From positions 1 to 64,000 of IMG/VR virus record IMGVR_UViG_3300043444_000523: DNA of 64,000 nucleotides; one strand, written 5' to 3'. A program made the translations under genes and the position numbers. The notes beneath the pieces are model-generated. The model ran no database searches. It was not told the DNA's origin and saw only the letters and a program-made list of their open reading frames with translations. Numbering within the stretch: position 1 is the first letter of the stretch; the number at the start of each line of letters is the position of its first letter. The DNA comes from a virus. Of this stretch, positions 22,589 through 63,805 are shown in pieces.

Positions 22589-22718
22589 TCGCCTCGATTG
22601 ATCGAGTCAACATCAGACATAGGTCTCTTGCATGTCTTGCACTTCGGCTTGTGAACGCAATCACAAGGCCAAGTTCTGAAACAGTACAAGCATACCGTAG
22701 GCGACGGGTCATTCATAA

Positions 22719-22790
22719 TCGCAGAGATGGGAATCGAACCCATTACCTGCTGGTTATGAGCCAGCCGAGATGCCAATTCTCTACTCTGCT
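22719..22790 (-). tRNA. tRNA-Met(CAT), initiator-like, no encoded CCA
   Basis: Cloverleaf: acceptor AGCAGAG/CTCTGCG with 1:72 mismatch, D-stem GAGA/TCTC (A11-U24), anticodon arm GCTGG-CTCATAA-CCAGC, T-arm ATGGG-TTCGATT-CCCAT. Confidence 0.92.
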
Positions 22791-22869
22791 ACAGGCTTCA
22801 GGCTGCTGCCTTCTTTTGTACTGCTCAACAGCCACACGTCGGCGGTTCAAGACGACGGAAGCCTACCAT

Positions 22870-56111: not shown

Positions 56112-57185
56112 TTAGCCCGCGACTTTTGGGGCCGGTTTACTGACGGCCCAAGCCCTCAAATTGAGGGCAGCGTTTCGGTCGGCATTTGTGGAGTGCCCGC
56201 AATGTTTGCAGACAAACTCAGACTGGCTCTTTCGGTTGGCACGCTCGCAGTGGCCGCAGACATGGCACGTCTGGGAACTGTATCGCGGGTCAACCAAGAC
56301 TACGGACACGCCTGCCCGTCGGGCCTTGTACTCCACAAACTGCCGAAGCTGAAAGAAACTCCAGTTGCCAAGTCGTCGCCGGAAACGCCTAGAAGCCGTT
56401 TGCTCACAACGGTCACGCAAACCGGAGAGGTTCTCCAGAGCGATACCGATGCCGAGTGTCTTGGCTTTGCCGACAAGACTCTTGCTGATGGCGTGGTTTA
56501 CCCATGCTTGATAGCGGGACTGCCGCCCCGCCATCCGCTTCAACCGTCGCTTGGCAGACTTGGTTCCTTTCCGTTGGTACTGCTTACGGGCTGTCATCCG
56601 GCGCTTGCGGTTTCGTTCGACACCCGCACCGGAGAACGATTCCCCGGTGGAGTCGGTAGCAATCTGGACAATGCCAAAGTCACAACCCAAGTATTCGGTA
56701 ACCGGCTGTGGGTCGGAAACGGTCGCCTTGACTTGAACATGCAGAAAGTAACCGCCATCGCGTTTGACAAGTGCAGCGCTGGTCGGAACCTTCCCCGCAA
56801 GCGCGGTTCGCTGAAAGTCGCCAAGTTGGGTCGTCAGTCGATGCCGCCCATGCAACAGGGTCAGGCTGAAAGTCCAGTCGGATTCTCGGAAGGAAAAGAT
56901 TCGAGCATCGTAGTTCACGCTCGTAGGAGCAAATCGGGAGAGGTCTTTTACGGCGGCAACGCGACCGATGGCACGAACGGCCAGATTCGCCGACAGCCCG
57001 AACGCAGTCCGCGTTTCGCGGTAGGCCAATTTGTGCAGAGCGAGATGTCCTTTAGTCTCTGTCTCTGCCGCACGACGAACCAAGTGATTGCACGCCGCAG
57101 CGAAAGCCACAAGTGTAACGTCGATTTCAACCGCCTGTTCAGCGGTCGGAACCAGCTTGCAACAGATGGTACGGATGGCTTCCAT
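56112..57185 (-). CDS. tnpB: TnpB RNA-guided endonuclease
   Basis: RuvC D-E-D (LGCDFG, IALENL, NADRNAALN) and zinc finger CHVCG/CKHCG. Confidence 0.93.
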   Translation of the reverse strand: MEAIRTICCKLVPTAEQAVEIDVTLVAFAAACNHLVRRAAETETKGHLALHKLAYRETRTAFGLSANLAVRAIGRVAAVKDLSRFAPTSVNYDARIFSFRESDWTFSLTLLHGRHRLTTQLGDFQRTALAGKVPTSAALVKRDGGYFLHVQVKATVSDPQPVTEYLGCDFGIVQIATDSTGESFSGAGVERNRKRRMTARKQYQRKGTKSAKRRLKRMAGRQSRYQAWVNHAISKSLVGKAKTLGIGIALENLSGLRDRCEQTASRRFRRRLGNWSFFQLRQFVEYKARRAGVSVVLVDPRYSSQTCHVCGHCERANRKSQSEFVCKHCGHSTNADRNAALNLRAWAVSKPAPKVAG

Positions 57186-57578
57186 TCAGACACCCTTCTG
57201 GTTCTCGATGTACTGCTTGATAACGGCCAGAGGCGCGCCGCCAACAGTCGCGACAAAGTAGGAGTTCGTCCAGAGCGATGGCAACCGGCTACGCAACGCT
57301 GGGTACTCCGTGCGCAGGAACCGGGACGAACGGCCCTTGACCAACTTTATCAGCCGGTGGATTCCGAACTGTGGATCGACTTCAACGAGCAGATGTACGT
57401 GATCGGGCATCACTTCCATCTCGATCAGTTCCGAACGGGTTTCAAGGATCACTTCCCGAATCAGATTCTTGAGCCGTTCATCAACGCCGTCGATCAAGAC
57501 CTTGCGACGATACTTGGGGCAGAAAACAACGTGGTACTTGCAGCAGTAGGACACGTTGTTATTGCTCTTGAGCCTCAT
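57186..57578 (-). CDS. tnpA: IS200-type Y1 HUH transposase
   Basis: YHVVFCPKYRR, DHVHLL, LWTNSYF, IKQYIENQ. Confidence 0.95.
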   Translation of the reverse strand: MRLKSNNNVSYCCKYHVVFCPKYRRKVLIDGVDERLKNLIREVILETRSELIEMEVMPDHVHLLVEVDPQFGIHRLIKLVKGRSSRFLRTEYPALRSRLPSLWTNSYFVATVGGAPLAVIKQYIENQKGV

Positions 57579-57684
57579 TCCTGTATTATACACGTCCGAG
57601 ATGTCGAATGCCACCTCAGTAGCGTGGATTCGCCGTCTCCATTCCTCCCCATGCCTGAAGGCAGGGGTTTCTTGGAGACATTTC

Positions 57685-57780
57685 ATGAACAGCAAAGCCA
57701 AATTTTGGTTTGTGTTCGCTATTGTGTCTTCATGCTTTTGTGCGTTCTTATTCTCAATCTACTCATGGAAAGTCTGGTAG
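57685..57780 (+). CDS. 31-aa single-TM protein, target gene of the IS insertion
   Basis: MNSKAKFWFVFAIVSSCFCAFLFSIYSWKVW; its original AAAGGAG RBS is left at 56055-56061. Confidence 0.55.
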   Translation: MNSKAKFWFVFAIVSSCFCAFLFSIYSWKVW

Positions 57781-57795
57781 TGGCTCAACATGGTG

Positions 57796-57823
57796 TTGAC
57801 AACCTGGACGACCCTGATAGAGT
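57796..57823 (+). promoter_or_regulatory. Promoter TTGACA-16-(TGn)TAGAGT for a leaderless tnpB
   Basis: GTG start 7 nt after the -10 box; no SD. Confidence 0.6.
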
Positions 57824-57830
57824 TATCCTT

Positions 57831-59006
57831 GTGCTGAAAACGATTACCTATCGTCTGTACCCGTCGCGGGAGCAGGAATCTTTCCTGTTCTACTTCCTCT
57901 ACATTGGCCGCAAGATTTACAACGACGCACTTGCCGAGCGCGTCCGGTTCTACAAAGACACTGGCAAAAGCCTGACTAAATTCACGCAACAGATGGACCT
58001 GACGATACGCAGGTCAATTAGCCCGGTGCTTGCCTCTGTCCCTGTCTGGATTGAGCGAGACTCCCTGTCTAGGATAGACAAGGCATTCGCCAATTTCTTC
58101 CGCAGAGTAAATGAAGGGAGTGCCAAGCCTGGGTTCCCGCGATTCAAGTCAGCCAATCGCTGGAACAGTTTCTCAATGCCTATCCAAGGCAGTGGCAAGA
58201 AACTGGTGCAAGGAAATAGAATCCGCGTGGCCGGGATTGAAGGAACAATGCCAAGCCGTGGCGGGCAACAAATACTTGGAAAGATCATTGTCCAGAGAAT
58301 TGTTCATCGAGCAGGCAAGTGGTTCTGCAAGTTCGTAGTTGATGACAAACTCGACCCACCGCCTATTCATCCTGTAAAGTCGGCTATCGGCGTCGATGTT
58401 GGTCTGAAATCGTTTGCAACGCTTAGCAACGGTTCAACGATTGAGAATCCACGATTCTATCGGGGACTGGAACTCAAGCGTGCCCATCGCAACGTGTCTC
58501 GTAAAATCAAAGGCAGTCGGAACCGATGGAGAGCCGTTCGTCGTCTTCAATCGGTTTATGAGAAAGTCAGAAACTTACGCCACAATTTTACGCATCACGA
58601 GAGCAAGAGGATTGTCAATGACCACCAACTGATTGTTGTCGAAAAACTGAACATAGCTGGCATGGCCAGAAGCCGATTTGCCAAAAGTATCTTGGACGCT
58701 GCATGGGGTCGGTTCATATTTCAATTGCGTTACAAAGCTGAAAACGCTGGTTGCGCATTCGTTGAAGTTGACCCCCGTGGCACAAGCCAAGATTGCAGCA
58801 AGTGCGGCCAGACCGTGCCAAAGAAGTTGTCGGATCGTGTCCATAAATGCTCTTGCGGTCTCGTGCTAGACCGCGACCATAATGCGGCGTTGAACATCCT
58901 TCAGCGTGCCGTTCGATCAGCACCCGGCCCCGGTAGGTGGATCGGTAAAGCGTGTGGAGAGGCTACGAAGACTCGGCGAAACACGAAGGCTTCAACACCA
59001 TGTTGA
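57831..59006 (+). CDS. tnpB: Stand-alone TnpB (IS1341/IS607-like)
   Basis: YRLYP, GFPRFKS, IGVDVGLK, IVVEKLNI, TSQDCSKCG, DRDHNAALNI. The 5' part of ORF 56193..59006 is only antisense to the IS. Confidence 0.9.
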   Translation: MLKTITYRLYPSREQESFLFYFLYIGRKIYNDALAERVRFYKDTGKSLTKFTQQMDLTIRRSISPVLASVPVWIERDSLSRIDKAFANFFRRVNEGSAKPGFPRFKSANRWNSFSMPIQGSGKKLVQGNRIRVAGIEGTMPSRGGQQILGKIIVQRIVHRAGKWFCKFVVDDKLDPPPIHPVKSAIGVDVGLKSFATLSNGSTIENPRFYRGLELKRAHRNVSRKIKGSRNRWRAVRRLQSVYEKVRNLRHNFTHHESKRIVNDHQLIVVEKLNIAGMARSRFAKSILDAAWGRFIFQLRYKAENAGCAFVEVDPRGTSQDCSKCGQTVPKKLSDRVHKCSCGLVLDRDHNAALNILQRAVRSAPGPGRWIGKACGEATKTRRNTKASTPC

Positions 59007-59711: not shown

Positions 59712-59720
59712 GTTGCCAAA

Positions 59721-59958
59721 GAAATAGGCGCAACTCGCGCCTATTTCCGCCTCCCCCACAGGCTGACCTTCTTTTCGTCTCTTCGGGGCGGCTCGTCTGG
59801 TATACTTGCAGGCGAGCCCCTCTGTCCCCTGCCTCCGATGCCGATCCGTGCGCCCATCGTCTGGTCTGTTCGTGATGCTCCGGTTTCTATGCCAGCTAGT
59901 GAAGCAACTCCGAAGTCGGCATGGAAGTGGGCCAGATTGAATGCGTCCATGCCGTCTG
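59721..59958 (-). pseudogene. Inverted copy of the terL 3' end (last 71 codons + stop + palindrome copy 11 at 59723-59745)
   Basis: Aligns without gaps to 62939-63176 with about 25 mismatches. Confidence 0.9.
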
Positions 59959-60027
59959 ACAAGCGAAAGAAACAGCACAAGTTCAAGTGCAGACGATGCC
60001 ACAAAAAGGCGTTCCTAGAAGAGCCAA

Positions 60028-60946: not shown

Positions 60947-61022
60947 GCATACCTCTTGTTAGAAACGGGACCAAACACCATTATCATGATACTGGATGTG
61001 ACACGCCGCGTCTATAACTCAA

Positions 61023-61280
61023 CCGGGTAGCCCAACGGAAGAGGCAGCGTCGGCCTATCAGACTATCACAGGAGACTTGTAACGTCGTGCCAAGGTCATG
61101 ATCGTTTGTCGGCCTTAATGCCCTGAGATGCAGGTTCGATTCCAGCTCCCCCAGCTTATCCACAACCCTACTGGGGGATCGTCTAACGGAAAGACATCAG
61201 GCTTAACGATTGAGGGCCACAAGTGGATAAGAGCATGACCAACCTGAAAAGGCGCATCCCATCTTGAGTGATGGACTCGG
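61023..61280 (+). ncRNA. Structured ncRNA with a circularly permuted tRNA-like core (Y RNA/YrlA-like topology)
   Basis: T-arm (61130-61146) precedes a loop-closed acceptor stem (61147-61154/61171-61178), then the D-arm (61181-61195); CCTGA/TCAGG close the anticodon-equivalent stem. Confidence 0.75.
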
Positions 61281-61313
61281 ACCCGGCAGACGGCTACTCT
61301 GTCGGGTCTTTTC
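61280..61313 (+). terminator. Intrinsic terminator ending the ncRNA
   Basis: GACCCGGCAGA-7nt-TCTGTCGGGTC followed by TTTT. Confidence 0.75.
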
Positions 61314-61315
61314 TA

Positions 61316-61344
61316 TTGACACATCCAGGCGTCATGCGTAGCCT
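61316..61344 (+). promoter_or_regulatory. Promoter TTGACA-17-TAGCCT giving a leaderless terL mRNA
   Basis: ATG at 61351 begins 7 nt after the -10 box; no SD. Confidence 0.7.
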
Positions 61345-61350
61345 GCTTGC

Positions 61351-63156
61351 ATGTTAAGTGCCTCCGAACTCGCCGAACTTGAAGCCTATCTCCCGCACGC
61401 CAATGAAGATGAACGTCGGAAGATCAACGAGTATCTAGTCTCCATCCGCAAGGTGGAGAACAACTTCCCTTGGGCCGCATACCGATACGATCCAATCGGC
61501 TATGCGTACAACGTCCTTGGCCTCACGTTCCTTTCCGACGATCAGAAGATTGCACTGCGAGCGGCTGTAACGCCTCCGTACCGAGTGCAAATTGACGCCG
61601 GAAACGCTGTTGGCAAAAGCCTAACCTGCGCCGTCTTGGCCTCATGGTTCTACGACTCATATGACCCAGGCTGCGTTTTCACTACGGCCCCGACGCACGA
61701 TCACGTTGTCCGCGTGCTCTGGGCGCAAATACGCTCGCTTAGGTCCAATGCCAAGATGAAGCTACCGATGGACTTCATCGGGCCAGCTGCACCTGAGATG
61801 CGATCATCGGAATATCACTTTGCAAAAGGCCTGACCGCCTCGAAAGGAGAGGCGCTCAAAGGTTCTCACTTGCAGAATATGTGCTTCATATTCGACGAGT
61901 CTGAAGCATTGCCGGTGATGTACTGGGAATCTGTTCGCACGATGTTTAAGCCGCAGCCGGGTATGCTGTGGCTATCCGTGGGCAACCCGACAACCACCAG
62001 CAGCGCTGCATTCCTTGAGTCCACTCGCACGGATGAGAACAAGAAGCCGTTCTGGCGCAACCTGCGCATGAGTGTGCTCAATCACCCAAACATCATAGCT
62101 GGTCTCCAAGGGCTTCCGCCGCCAATCCCAAACGCCGTCGATGTCGGCATGGTGGATGACTGGGTGCGACGACTATGCACGCCTCTCGATGAAAAAGAAG
62201 AAAAAAAAGCCACTGACTTCCAGTGGCGAGGAAGATGGTATCGGCCAAGCGGTGAAGCCGAGACGGTCATTCTCGGCTGTCGCCCGTCAACAGGAGCATC
62301 CGGCGTTTGGTCAGACTCGCTCTGGGAAGCCTGTTGCCATCTCGATTTGCCGTTCCCAATCGATCAACCACCCGAACTTGGCTGTGACGTGGCCAGAGTC
62401 CTTGGTGGCGATGATTGCGACATTCACGCACAATGGGGCGGCAACTCTCTCGCCCATGACTCTGCCAATGGCCGCTCTATACCAGCTACCATCGCTCGTC
62501 TCAAAGAGATGGCCGAAGAAGTATGCGAGTTTGCCAACGCCAAGAGAAAGGAACTTGTGGCCACTGGCAAATACTCACCCGAAGAACTCTCCAGGGCTCA
62601 AATCCACAAGCCGTGGGTTCCCAAAGAAATACCTGTCAAGATCGACGATTGCGGCATCGGCAACGTCATCACCGACTTTGCAGACGGCTGGAACTTCATC
62701 CCAGTCAACCCAGGCTGGGCTGCAAAGCAAGACCTACGTTATCCCAACGTCCGAAGCGAGCTGTGGTTTGAGACCCAGGAGAAGGCCATACTGTTCGGCC
62801 TCAGCATGAAGCACCTGTCTGAAGATGATCAGCAGATGCTGCGTATCCAATCCTTTGCGCCAAAGTGGGAGTTGGATGCTAGACGCCGACGAGTTGTTGA
62901 GAGCAAAGAGGACACAAAGAAACGACTTGGCCGCTCGCCAGACGGCATGGACGCATTCAATCTTGCCCACTTCCATGCCAACTTTGGCGTGGCCTCATTG
63001 GCAGGCATCGAAACCGGAGTATCACGAACAGACCAGACGATGGGCGCACGAATCGGCATCGGCGGCAGGGGACAGAGGGGCTCGCCTGCGAGTGTTCCAG
63101 ACGAGCCGCCTAGAAGAGACGAGAACAAAGTTACTCTGTGGGGGAGGCGGAAATAG
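61351..63156 (+). CDS. terL: Terminase large subunit
   Basis: Walker A AGNAVGKS, TAPT, Walker B FIFDESE, GNP, nuclease LGCDVAR...D and RLGRSPDGMDA. Confidence 0.92.
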   Translation: MLSASELAELEAYLPHANEDERRKINEYLVSIRKVENNFPWAAYRYDPIGYAYNVLGLTFLSDDQKIALRAAVTPPYRVQIDAGNAVGKSLTCAVLASWFYDSYDPGCVFTTAPTHDHVVRVLWAQIRSLRSNAKMKLPMDFIGPAAPEMRSSEYHFAKGLTASKGEALKGSHLQNMCFIFDESEALPVMYWESVRTMFKPQPGMLWLSVGNPTTTSSAAFLESTRTDENKKPFWRNLRMSVLNHPNIIAGLQGLPPPIPNAVDVGMVDDWVRRLCTPLDEKEEKKATDFQWRGRWYRPSGEAETVILGCRPSTGASGVWSDSLWEACCHLDLPFPIDQPPELGCDVARVLGGDDCDIHAQWGGNSLAHDSANGRSIPATIARLKEMAEEVCEFANAKRKELVATGKYSPEELSRAQIHKPWVPKEIPVKIDDCGIGNVITDFADGWNFIPVNPGWAAKQDLRYPNVRSELWFETQEKAILFGLSMKHLSEDDQQMLRIQSFAPKWELDARRRRVVESKEDTKKRLGRSPDGMDAFNLAHFHANFGVASLAGIETGVSRTDQTMGARIGIGGRGQRGSPASVPDEPPRRDENKVTLWGRRK

Positions 63157-63805
63157 GCGCGAGTTGCGCCGATTTCTTCTTATCAAGCATCTCAGTCAAA
63201 TGCTTCCGAATGGCCGAATTTTGGTCATCGCATTGCTTATTGTAATCGAACAAGTCTTCGGGACTGTTGAAGAACATCCTGCCTACCAGTCGTTGGTCTT
63301 CTACGCGGAATCTGTCGTCTTTGTCAATGAAGCAGAACTCTTTCTCTGATGAAGCCACCAGCCTGAACTGGTTCCCATCGCTATCAAACACCGTCATGTT
63401 CACGCCAAACACGCAACCAGGATGCTCAGGGTCAGGAAACTTTTCACGAGCGTCTCGAATGTCTTTTGCCGACAGGCAGACCTCGGTATTGTGATAAACA
63501 AGCACAATCGTCTTCAGTTTGCCCCAGTCCAAGACGGCCTTGTACCGTATCGATTCATAGTCTTCGCCGAAGCCCGTGTACGTAAAGCCATAAGCGGCCC
63601 CGACGCAGTTGTCGTCATAGAAGACAATCTCGCCGGAGAACGGAACCTGATCGCCGTCAAGCGACAGGCCACGCTCCATTTCAATCCAATATGTCTCAAG
63701 ATGGCAACCAAGGCTCTTCGTCTGGTACTGATGGCGCGCATCCTTGATGAAGTTCGCCTTCTTCGGCAGCGGCGCAGTGCAGATGATCGTGTCATACATT
63801 CCCAT
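63131..63805 (-). CDS. Conserved phage hypothetical protein (MGMYD...QTKSL family)
   Basis: GGAGG RBS; MGMYDTIIC..PLP, YQTKSL, F.GEI.FY motifs. Confidence 0.65.
   Translation of the reverse strand: MGMYDTIICTAPLPKKANFIKDARHQYQTKSLGCHLETYWIEMERGLSLDGDQVPFSGEIVFYDDNCVGAAYGFTYTGFGEDYESIRYKAVLDWGKLKTIVLVYHNTEVCLSAKDIRDAREKFPDPEHPGCVFGVNMTVFDSDGNQFRLVASSEKEFCFIDKDDRFRVEDQRLVGRMFFNSPEDLFDYNKQCDDQNSAIRKHLTEMLDKKKSAQLAPISASPTE
63152..63174. promoter_or_regulatory. 23-bp palindromic site, copy 12
   Basis: AATAGGCGCGAGTTGCGCCGATT; supplies the terL stop and encodes SAQLAPI on the opposite strand. Confidence 0.78.

What the first reader, a model, noticed from the sequence alone, without database searches (positions are those of the whole stretch)
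61023..61313. Circularly permuted tRNA-mimic RNA with a 9-bp kissing interaction, directly upstream of terL
Seen: the 3' half of a tRNA (CCTGA-GAT-GCAGG TTCGATT CCAGC-TCCCCCAG, 61122-61154) comes before its 5' half (TGGGGGA-TC-GTCT AACGGAA AGAC-A-TCAGG, 61172-61201). The acceptor stem is therefore closed by a 16-nt loop. The anticodon stem continues into a long helix with a bulged C (61106-61119/61209-61222) and then GGTCATG/CATGACC. The acceptor loop CTTATCCAC (61155-61163) is exactly complementary to GTGGATAAG (61223-61231) in an internal loop at the far end. A second D-arm-like segment opens the region at 61023, a second CCTGA at 61243 offers TCAGG an alternative partner, and a terminator closes it. 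Known: bacterial and phage YrlA Y RNAs have this permuted topology but normally sit beside a Ro60/TROVE gene, and none is in this window. Inference: the paired loops lie at opposite ends of an L-shape, so pairing may be intermolecular (dimer or ring). With terL adjacent and no recognisable terS, a pRNA-like packaging role is conceivable; a decoy for anticodon nucleases is an alternative.
Basis: partly seen in the sequence, partly recalled or inferred. Interest (0 to 1): 0.88.

Follow-up and report, generated by a model that had tools for sequence, protein, structure and literature searches.

The report
Orphan one-headed phage tRNA-mimic RNA
The flagged stretch is a real folded RNA shaped like a glutamine tRNA with its halves swapped. 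It is a cut-down phage copy of a two-headed tRNA-mimic RNA that planctomycete bacteria and other phages keep beside an unstudied protein (DUF7873), and nothing ties it to DNA packaging.

Summary
61122-61201 encodes a T arm, a loop-capped acceptor stem and a D arm in permuted order, closed by a long helix. A promoter-like site precedes the unit and an intrinsic terminator ends it.

It is not chance. A covariance model built from the phage sequence alone finds full-length homologues in Planctomycetia chromosomes. In that alignment 33 of 42 base pairs show compensatory changes, and the tRNA tertiary pairs 8:14 and 15:48 are kept.

The host RNA is about 400 nt and has two heads, one tRNA-Leu-like and one tRNA-Gln-like. 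The phage copy keeps head B and only the 5' half of head A.

The family scores below threshold against Rfam YrlA, and the phage copy does not score at all. It is not linked to Ro60. It co-occurs with DUF7873 in 13 of 13 genomes, usually directly downstream of that gene, and in hosts it usually precedes the CCA-adding enzyme gene. This phage record holds no DUF7873, CCA-enzyme or Ro60 gene.

Adjacency to terL is not conserved, so the packaging idea fails.

The 9-bp loop-loop complementarity is real (p about 0.001), but none of 17 relatives has it. It also coincides with the record's only perfect DnaA-box 9-mer.

This scan had already met the DUF7873-linked RNA family on other DNA (at least 18 notes).

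The parts
60960..60987 (+). Promoter-like site (two hexamers, 16-nt spacer). It is the only predicted + strand promoter upstream of both the RNA and terL. Its -10 resembles the ATCAT-type -10 of the host copies.
   Evidence: host promoters seen
60995..61022 (+). Short 5' leader. 61010-61022 can pair with 61264-61276 in the MFE fold. This pairing is unverified.
   Evidence: inference only
61023..61045 (+). Remnant of head A: acceptor 5' strand, positions 8-9 and a tRNA-Leu-like D arm. Its T arm and acceptor 3' strand are missing.
   Evidence: No second head is found by the RNA models.
61046..61085 (+). Inter-head linker, homologous in position to the host linker.
61086..61091 (+). Outermost helix P0, 5' strand. 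It pairs with 61251-61255.
   Evidence: pairs 8-12 with 190-194 conserved
61094..61100 (+). Closing helix P1, 5' strand. It pairs with 61234-61240.
   Evidence: 6 of 7 pairs show changes on both sides
61101..61105 (+). 5' side of the conserved internal loop. It keeps the family's AUCG but has lost the CGAA seen in several host copies.
61106..61119 (+). Helix 2, 5' strand, which replaces the anticodon loop. It pairs with 61209-61222, with bulges.
   Evidence: compensatory changes in the GGCC core seen
61122..61154 (+). 3' half of head B (tRNA-Gln-like): anticodon-stem 3' strand, 3-nt variable region, T arm, acceptor 3' strand and G73.
61155..61170 (+). Loop capping the acceptor stem. 61155-61163 is complementary to 61223-61231. 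61156-61164 is a perfect DnaA-box 9-mer.
61171..61201 (+). 5' half of head B: acceptor 5' strand, U8 and C9, D arm, A26, anticodon-stem 5' strand.
61202..61208 (+). 7-nt bulge between the anticodon stem and helix 2. It is homologous to a variable 12-14-nt stretch in hosts and is not an anticodon loop.
61209..61222 (+). Helix 2, 3' strand.
61223..61233 (+). 3' side of the conserved internal loop. It keeps the family's GGAUA. In this phage it is complementary to the capping loop.
61234..61240 (+). Closing helix P1, 3' strand.
61241..61255 (+). Conserved CCUGA-type loop motif (61243-61247), then the P0 3' strand (61251-61255).
61259..61274 (+). Small hairpin, at the place where host copies carry a variable hairpin.
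61279..61313 (+). Intrinsic terminator: 12-bp stem, 7-nt loop and a T run.
61351..63156 (+). Large terminase gene. It is a neighbour, not part of the RNA unit. It starts 38 nt after the terminator, and no promoter is predicted in between.

Best explanation
The stretch encodes a non-coding RNA of about 320 nt. It is an orphan, one-headed derivative of a conserved two-headed tRNA-mimic RNA family. That family resembles bacterial YrlA Y RNAs in plan but travels with the protein DUF7873, not with Ro60.

Shown:
- Head B folds as the acceptor, T and D part of a tRNA-Gln. The acceptor stem is capped by a loop, and the anticodon loop is replaced by a long closing helix. That helix carries a conserved internal loop.
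- The fold is held by covariation across Planctomycetia hosts and other phages.
- Head A has been cut down to its 5' half.

Inferred:
- The RNA is made from its own promoter and mostly ends at its terminator.
- It works in trans as a tRNA-shaped handle or decoy. The tRNA-like head would engage enzymes that read the tRNA elbow and acceptor arm (RNase P, CCA-adding enzyme, modification enzymes).
- The internal loop, which lies where YrlA binds Ro60, would dock the partner protein. The host would have to supply that partner, DUF7873, because the phage record has none.
- The 9-bp complement between capping loop and internal loop is specific to this phage lineage. It would lock or mask that docking loop within one molecule, or pair two molecules.

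Odds: family membership about 0.95. A working trans-acting RNA of this kind about 0.45.
For: - A model built from the phage sequence alone finds full-length matches in Planctomycetia genomes, up to 65 bits and E 5e-11 per genome.
- MAFFT plus RNAalifold gives 19 of 40 pairs with compensatory changes.
- On the model-based alignment, 33 of 42 pairs change on both sides. 89.6% of cells are paired, against 34-42% when partners are slid.
- U8:A14 is invariant. The 15:48 pair switches from A:U to G:C in one host.
- Head B is closest to tRNA-Gln: 20 of the 25 best matches among 1394 tRNAs. Host head A is closest to tRNA-Leu: 25 of 25.
- In a sample of 151 Planctomycetia, DUF7873 is in 13 genomes and all 13 hold the RNA. 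Only 1 further genome has a full-length match of 51 bits or more.
- The DUF7873 gene lies directly upstream on the same strand in 7 host genomes (6 with a gap of about 0.1-0.3 kb, one of about 0.5 kb) and in phage loci L188, L304, L219 and L254.
- A complete 103.6-kb phage (L255) also carries a one-headed copy and no DUF7873, so orphan copies recur.
- A promoter-like site and a terminator bracket the unit.
Against: - There are no expression data.
- No close relative of this phage was available, so selection on this particular copy is untested.
- The copy shows wear: an A.A mismatch in the T stem, loss of the CGAA motif, no head A, and no partner gene in the record.
- The record is only 87% complete.
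- DUF7873 has no known fold or function, so the mechanism rests on analogy with YrlA and Ro60.
- The DUF7873-RNA co-occurrence is confounded by shared ancestry of the genomes.
Confidence: 0.55

Rival explanations
1. Decaying remnant. A DUF7873-RNA cassette was broken by a rearrangement inside head A. The remaining head is an inert fragment that simply has not eroded yet.
For: - Head A is truncated and there is no DUF7873 gene.
- The T stem has a mismatch and the CGAA motif is lost.
- There is no Rfam YrlA score, whereas host heads reach 24-39 bits.
- The area is rearrangement-prone: a 247-nt inverted repeat encloses it and a TnpB-like ORF (56193-59006) lies about 2 kb upstream.
Against: - 41 of the 42 modelled pairs of head B and its closing helices are intact. 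The T and D loops are canonical and the tertiary pairs are kept.
- A promoter-like site and a strong terminator remain.
- About eight substitutions relative to the host consensus created a perfect 9-bp complement, which looks like selection after the truncation.
- A complete phage genome also keeps an orphan single head.
Confidence: 0.2
2. Cis-acting leader. The RNA and its terminator gate transcription of terL from the only upstream promoter. This copies the host arrangement, in which the CCA-enzyme gene follows the RNA's terminator.
For: - No promoter is predicted between the terminator and terL, and the upstream genes point the other way.
- In 9 of the 10 strongest host loci a CCA-adding-enzyme-like gene follows on the same strand. 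In several, only 8-17 nt separate the T run from the start codon.
Against: - No antiterminator could be defined.
- Other phage copies precede unrelated genes or tRNAs.
- Two host genomes lack the cca neighbour or have it further away.
- Co-transcription of stable RNAs with mRNAs is common without any regulation.
- Phage late promoters may escape the sigma-70 scan.
Confidence: 0.12
3. The 9-nt complement is a DNA-level feature, not an RNA contact: a pair of inverted DnaA boxes that bind host DnaA.
For: - 61156-61164 is the only perfect match to the classical DnaA-box 9-mer in the whole 104.7-kb record.
- 61222-61230 on the other strand is a one-mismatch box 66 nt away, the closest pair of such boxes in the genome.
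Against: - One perfect box per 105 kb is about what chance gives.
- There is no box cluster and no AT-rich stretch. The cumulative GC-skew extremes lie at about 21 and 78 kb, not here.
- The motif is not enriched in three of four host genomes.
- The family's conserved GGAUA already supplies 5 of the 9 bases. I estimate the remaining coincidence at roughly 1 in 64 to 1 in 256.
Confidence: 0.1
4. A classical YrlA Y RNA that uses a host Ro60/Rsr.
For: - The topology is the same.
- Host heads give sub-threshold Rfam YrlA matches.
- Several host copies carry an NUCGAANG stretch just after the closing helix, where YrlA has its Ro60 motif.
Against: - There is no TROVE gene in the phage. Four of five RNA-bearing host genomes have none, and in the fifth it lies hundreds of kb away.
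- The phage RNA has no GNCGAAN0-1G motif and no CGAA at all.
- It gives no Rfam hit even at E 10.
Confidence: 0.04
5. A pRNA-like packaging RNA that forms a ring by intermolecular loop pairing on the prohead, or a decoy for anticodon nucleases.
For: - It lies next to terL.
- A 9-bp loop complement could pair in trans.
Against: - The RNA is absent from the terL-homologue loci searched (95 with one model, 100 with the other) and from two related phage records of about 110 kb.
- Homologues are chromosomal or lie in tRNA arrays.
- The loop complement is absent in all 17 relatives.
- There is no Rfam pRNA match.
- There is no anticodon loop for an anticodon nuclease to cut.
Confidence: 0.03

Closest known systems
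YrlA (Y RNA-like A; Rfam RF02553), the tRNA-mimicking Y RNA bound by bacterial Ro60/Rsr (Chen et al. 2014, PMC4201824; structure preprint 10.1101/312249)
   Same: - The order is T arm, capped acceptor-like stem, D arm.
- The RNA ends form a closing helix where the anticodon loop would be.
- The T and D loops, U8:A14 and a covarying 15:48 pair are conserved.
- A conserved loop in the closing helix lies where the protein partner would bind.
- YrlA also occurs in phages.
- The 7-8-bp acceptor stem matches the M. smegmatis form, which RNase P cuts and which then receives CCA.
   Different: - There is no Ro60 gene in the phage or in most hosts.
- There is no GNCGAAN0-1G motif.
- The Rfam score is absent for the phage copy and 24-39 bits for hosts, against a 69-bit threshold.
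- Full family members carry two heads in one RNA of about 400 nt.
- The linked genes are DUF7873 and, in hosts, a CCA-adding enzyme.
DUF7873-linked double tRNA-mimic RNA
   Same: - Head B, both closing helices, the internal-loop motifs, the CCUGA motif and the terminator align with the host and phage members.
- The head copies a specific tRNA.
   Different: - Only one complete head is present.
- There is no DUF7873 gene upstream or anywhere in the record.
- The upstream neighbour is on the opposite strand.
- It has a unique 9-bp complement between capping loop and internal loop.
Two-piece (circularly permuted) tmRNA genes of alpha-proteobacteria and cyanobacteria
   Same: The 3' acceptor and T-arm part is encoded before the 5' acceptor strand.
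   Different: - There is no G3:U70 pair and no tag reading frame or pseudoknots.
- A full D arm is present.
- There is no ARAGORN or Rfam tmRNA match.
phi29 pRNA
   Same: It is a phage RNA with loops that could pair between molecules.
   Different: - There is no sequence or structure match.
- The fold is tRNA-like.
- It is not conserved beside packaging genes.
- Homologues are chromosomal.

Membership tests
YrlA / Ro60 Y RNA (RF02553) | Permuted tRNA-like domain (T arm, acceptor-like hairpin, D arm) closed by a helix formed from the RNA's two flanks | tested here: met
YrlA / Ro60 Y RNA (RF02553) | Score at or above the Rfam gathering threshold (69 bits) | tested here: not met
   The phage copy gives no match even at E 10. 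Host heads reach 24-39 bits.
YrlA / Ro60 Y RNA (RF02553) | GNCGAAN0-1G motif near the 5' end (proposed Ro60 site; PMC4201824) | tested here: not met
   A regex over 60990-61320 finds no match and no CGAA.
YrlA / Ro60 Y RNA (RF02553) | Ro60/TROVE gene within about 4 kb on the same strand | tested here: not met
   PF05731 is absent from the whole record. It is absent from 4 of 5 host genomes and distant in the fifth.
DUF7873-linked double tRNA-mimic RNA | Significant covariance-model match to the family's head B with its closing helices | tested here: met
   The phage-only model hits hosts at 50-65 bits.
DUF7873-linked double tRNA-mimic RNA | Two permuted tRNA-like heads in one transcript | tested here: not met
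   The window gives only one model hit. 61023-61045 is half a head.
DUF7873-linked double tRNA-mimic RNA | DUF7873 gene directly upstream on the same strand | tested here: not met
   There is no PF25283 match in the record and no tblastn hit in the window. The record is 87% complete.
DUF7873-linked double tRNA-mimic RNA | Physical binding of the RNA by DUF7873 | not testable with these tools
   Only co-occurrence and adjacency are available.
phi29-type packaging RNA | Conserved next to packaging genes in related phages, and a match to the pRNA family | tested here: not met
Permuted (two-piece) tmRNA | Alanine identity pair G3:U70, a tag reading frame, and detection by ARAGORN or Rfam | tested here: not met
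Genuine permuted tRNA gene | An anticodon stem-loop that can decode | tested here: not met
   The anticodon stem runs on into helix 2 and there is no 7-nt hairpin loop.

The most novel reading that the evidence does not exclude
The phage carries a stripped-down head of its host's DUF7873 RNA as a weapon. It would be a decoy that captures the host DUF7873 protein or tRNA acceptor-end enzymes. Its protein-docking loop would be pre-locked by a newly evolved 9-bp contact. That contact would either turn the tRNA L-shape into a closed triangle (helix 2 plus the 9-bp helix is about 23 bp, close to my estimate of the distance between the acceptor-stem end and the anticodon-stem end) or join molecules head to tail.
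Probability: 0.18. Interest if true: 0.85.

Novelty: new variant of a known kind. Interest (0 to 1): 0.6.

Why it matters
Permuted tRNA mimics are known so far only as partners of Ro60. Here the same RNA plan is shown, with strong covariation, in bacteria and phages that lack Ro60. It is tied instead to an unstudied, widespread protein family: more than 1400 sequence clusters, with no paper and no recognisable fold. In hosts it is also tied to the CCA-adding enzyme gene.

An orphan one-headed copy in a phage gives a natural handle on function. If it titrates or hijacks the host's DUF7873 particle, that would be a new kind of RNA-based interference between phage and host around tRNA maintenance.

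For annotation, the result turns a speculative 'packaging RNA' into a member of a definable RNA family that could be added to Rfam.

Tried and rejected
- **Direct searches for the same or close sequence found nothing.** These were blastn against phage records, an exact-pattern scan of viral contigs, and close terL relatives in viral contigs.
- **No RNA beside terL relatives.** I fetched 115 loci around terL homologues. A hand-written descriptor scan, the phage-only model (95 of the loci) and the family model (100 loci) found no such RNA there.
- **Permuted tmRNA and a true permuted tRNA gene were rejected**.
- **A cis leader of the cca gene was my working idea for the host RNA**. The DUF7873 link proved tighter. 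The leader idea is kept as a rival.
- **Loop-loop pairing as a family feature was rejected.** The other 17 members show runs of 2-6 bp, all with p above 0.05.
- **A replication origin at the DnaA-box pair is not supported**.
- **The DUF7873 fold remains unassigned.** There is no PDB sequence match. The AlphaFold model is good (pLDDT 82.6), but Foldseek finds nothing and VIA-align gives only generic helical matches at Z 8.2 or below.
- **Literature searches found no description of this RNA or of DUF7873**.

Full report
**What is there.**
- The 3' half of a tRNA comes first: anticodon-stem strand, 3-nt variable region, T arm with a canonical loop, and acceptor strand (61122-61154).
- A 16-nt loop follows (61155-61170).
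- The matching 5' half comes last: acceptor strand, U8, D arm with GG, A26 and anticodon-stem strand (61171-61201).
- The anticodon stem continues into a bulged helix (61106-61119 with 61209-61222).
- After an asymmetric internal loop comes a 7-bp outer helix (61094-61100 with 61234-61240).

A sigma-70-like site at 60960-60987 and a 12-bp terminator at 61279-61309 bracket the unit. No + strand ORF of 40 codons or more lies inside it. ARAGORN and Rfam find nothing here, even at E 10. Folding energy alone is unremarkable: z is -1.2, and the hand-drawn fold scores -45.6 against an MFE of -46.1 kcal/mol.

**More than chance.** I built a covariance model from the phage sequence alone, using my hand structure.
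- It found nothing beside terL relatives.
- It hit a Planctomycetia MAG that also holds a terL relative.
- It then hit 22 of 151 sampled genomes of that class, ten of them full-length at 37-65 bits.

A plain MAFFT alignment with RNAalifold recovers the permuted cloverleaf, with 19 of 40 pairs showing compensatory changes. On the model-based alignment, 33 of 42 pairs change on both sides. There, 89.6% of cells pair, against 34-42% when partners are slid by 1-3 columns. That alignment is fitted to the structure, so the MAFFT result is the independent check. U8:A14 is invariant, and the 15:48 pair is A:U in nine sequences and G:C in one. The tRNA-like fold is therefore real and conserved.

**Family anatomy and what the phage copy lacks.** Host copies are about 400 nt long and contain, in order:
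- a promoter and a short 5' hairpin;
- head A, itself a permuted tRNA-like module;
- a linker;
- head B with two closing helices;
- a conserved CCUGA-type loop;
- a variable hairpin and a terminator.

Compared with 1394 tRNAs found by ARAGORN in the fetched loci, head A is tRNA-Leu-like (25 of the 25 best matches). Head B is tRNA-Gln-like in the window (20 of 25), in phage L188 and in host L119, and tRNA-Gly-like in host L122. The window aligns from the D arm of head A onward.

**Partners and context.**
- *Ro60.* TROVE is absent from the 104.7-kb phage record (87% complete). It is absent from two related phage records and the MAG and from four of five RNA-bearing host genomes. In the fifth it lies hundreds of kb away.
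- *CCA-adding enzyme.* In 9 of the 10 strongest host loci, a gene of the CCA-adding enzyme / poly(A) polymerase family follows the RNA on the same strand. In several loci only 8-17 nt separate the terminator's T run from the start codon.
- *DUF7873.* In phage locus L304 the gene directly upstream of the RNA is DUF7873. Earlier notes of this scan report that DUF7873 and a double tRNA-mimic RNA recur together, and one note describes the Gemmata two-headed RNA upstream of cca.

I tested the DUF7873 link myself.
- Among the same 151 genomes, DUF7873 occurs in 13, and all 13 have a full-length RNA match of 51 bits or more. Only one further genome has such a match without DUF7873.
- The gene lies directly upstream on the same strand in seven of the 13 genomes. 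It is unlinked, or on another contig, in the other six.
- It is also adjacent in phage loci L188, L304, L219 and L254.
- The phage studied here has no DUF7873, no PolyA_pol-family gene and no TROVE gene.
- A complete 103.6-kb phage with terminal repeats (L255) likewise carries a one-headed copy inside a tRNA array and has no DUF7873.

**terL.** The downstream ORF is a large terminase. A profile of its relatives matches a solved terminase nuclease domain (E 7e-5), and one relative is named as a terminase large subunit. The RNA is not conserved beside terL. There are no hits among the terL-homologue loci searched, 95 with the phage-only model and 100 (830 kb) with the family model. Two related phage records of about 110 kb, searched whole, also give none. 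None of the other RNA-bearing phage loci contains a terL relative. This removes the packaging-RNA idea.

**The 9-bp complement.** 61155-61163 and 61223-61231 are exact complements, with a duplex energy of -13.9 kcal/mol.
- In 2000 loop shuffles, a run this long arose with p of about 0.001.
- The other 17 family members, including the closest phage copy, show runs of only 2-6 bp, all with p above 0.05, and duplex energies of -3 to -8 kcal/mol.
- At the homologous register, hosts pair only 3 of 9 positions, by my count.

The contact is therefore specific to this lineage. It needed about eight substitutions relative to the host consensus. The internal-loop side keeps the family's conserved GGAUA.

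By my estimate, helix 2 (14 bp) stacked on the 9-bp helix spans about 64 Å. That is near the roughly 60 Å between the ends of the acceptor and anticodon stems of a tRNA. An intramolecular 'strut' is therefore as possible as pairing in trans. This is inference, not a model.

There is an alternative at the DNA level. 61156-61164 is the only perfect classical DnaA-box 9-mer in the record, and the partner is a one-mismatch box on the other strand. However, there is no box cluster and no AT-rich stretch. The skew extremes lie elsewhere, and the motif is not enriched in three of four host genomes.

**How it most likely works.**
- *Shown:* a conserved tRNA-shaped head on a closing helix with a conserved internal loop; genomic partnership of the family with DUF7873; independence from Ro60.
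- *Inferred by analogy with YrlA/Ro60 (PMC4201824):* the head recruits or occupies enzymes that recognise the tRNA elbow and acceptor arm, and the internal loop docks the protein partner.

In this phage the partner would have to come from the host. The RNA would then act in trans as a hijacker or decoy, with its docking loop engaged by the new 9-bp contact.

The rivals are an inert remnant, a leader that gates terL (no promoter is predicted between terminator and terL), and a DnaA-box pair. Each is scored in its own section.

**Comparison with known families.** Rfam holds YrlA (RF02553). Host heads reach only 24-39 bits against a threshold of 69, and the phage copy gives nothing. The YrlA motif GNCGAAN0-1G is absent from the phage RNA. 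Several hosts have NUCGAANG at the matching place. No paper in the searchable library mentions DUF7873 or this RNA. The DUF7873 fold stays unassigned.

**Limits.**
- There are no transcript data.
- Co-occurrence statistics are confounded by phylogeny.

Noticed in passing
window 59719-59965 and 62932-63178: A 247-nt inverted repeat, 89% complementary, encloses the RNA and most of terL. The left arm lies in a minus-strand ORF that repeats the terL 3' end, so the roughly 3-kb segment could invert without breaking terL.
   Followed up: partly
window 61156-61164 and 61222-61230: The capping loop holds the only perfect TTATCCACA (classical DnaA box) in the 104.7-kb record. The complementary loop is a one-mismatch box on the other strand. 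I found no cluster, no AT-rich stretch and no skew extreme here.
   Followed up: yes
window 56193-59006: A long ORF whose C-terminal third carries TnpB/Cas12f-type domains (HTH_OrfB_IS605, OrfB_IS605, Cas12f1-like TNB). It lies about 2 kb upstream of the RNA.
   Followed up: no
host loci L120, L123, L125, L127 (ends of the RNA): In Planctomycetia chromosomes the two-headed RNA's terminator is followed within 8-17 nt by the start codon of a CCA-adding-enzyme-like gene. That gene must be read through from the RNA's promoter, which may be an attenuator arrangement.
   Followed up: partly
L301 4480-5400 (and L303): A phage tRNA array contains several other permuted tRNA-like modules that keep an anticodon-like hairpin after the D arm. 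Each is followed by a similar conserved flank of about 20 nt. ARAGORN does not call them.
   Followed up: no
L255 558-687 (complete 103.6-kb phage with terminal repeats): A one-headed permuted tRNA mimic with a closing helix sits inside a 19-tRNA array. The complete genome has no DUF7873, so this is a second orphan copy.
   Followed up: partly
L254 979-1120: A DUF7873-linked permuted tRNA-like module whose acceptor hairpin is about 15 bp long.
   Followed up: no
L219 9839-10212: A phage contig with the DUF7873-RNA pair also encodes a tmRNA and at least nine tRNAs nearby.
   Followed up: no
proteins P0002, P0008 (terL relatives): Some terL relatives are about 940-955 aa long and carry homing-endonuclease/LAGLIDADG domains, which suggests inteins in this terminase family.
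   Followed up: no
window 22718-22791 (minus strand): The phage's single tRNA (Met, CAT) has no encoded CCA end, so it depends on a host CCA-adding enzyme.
   Followed up: partly
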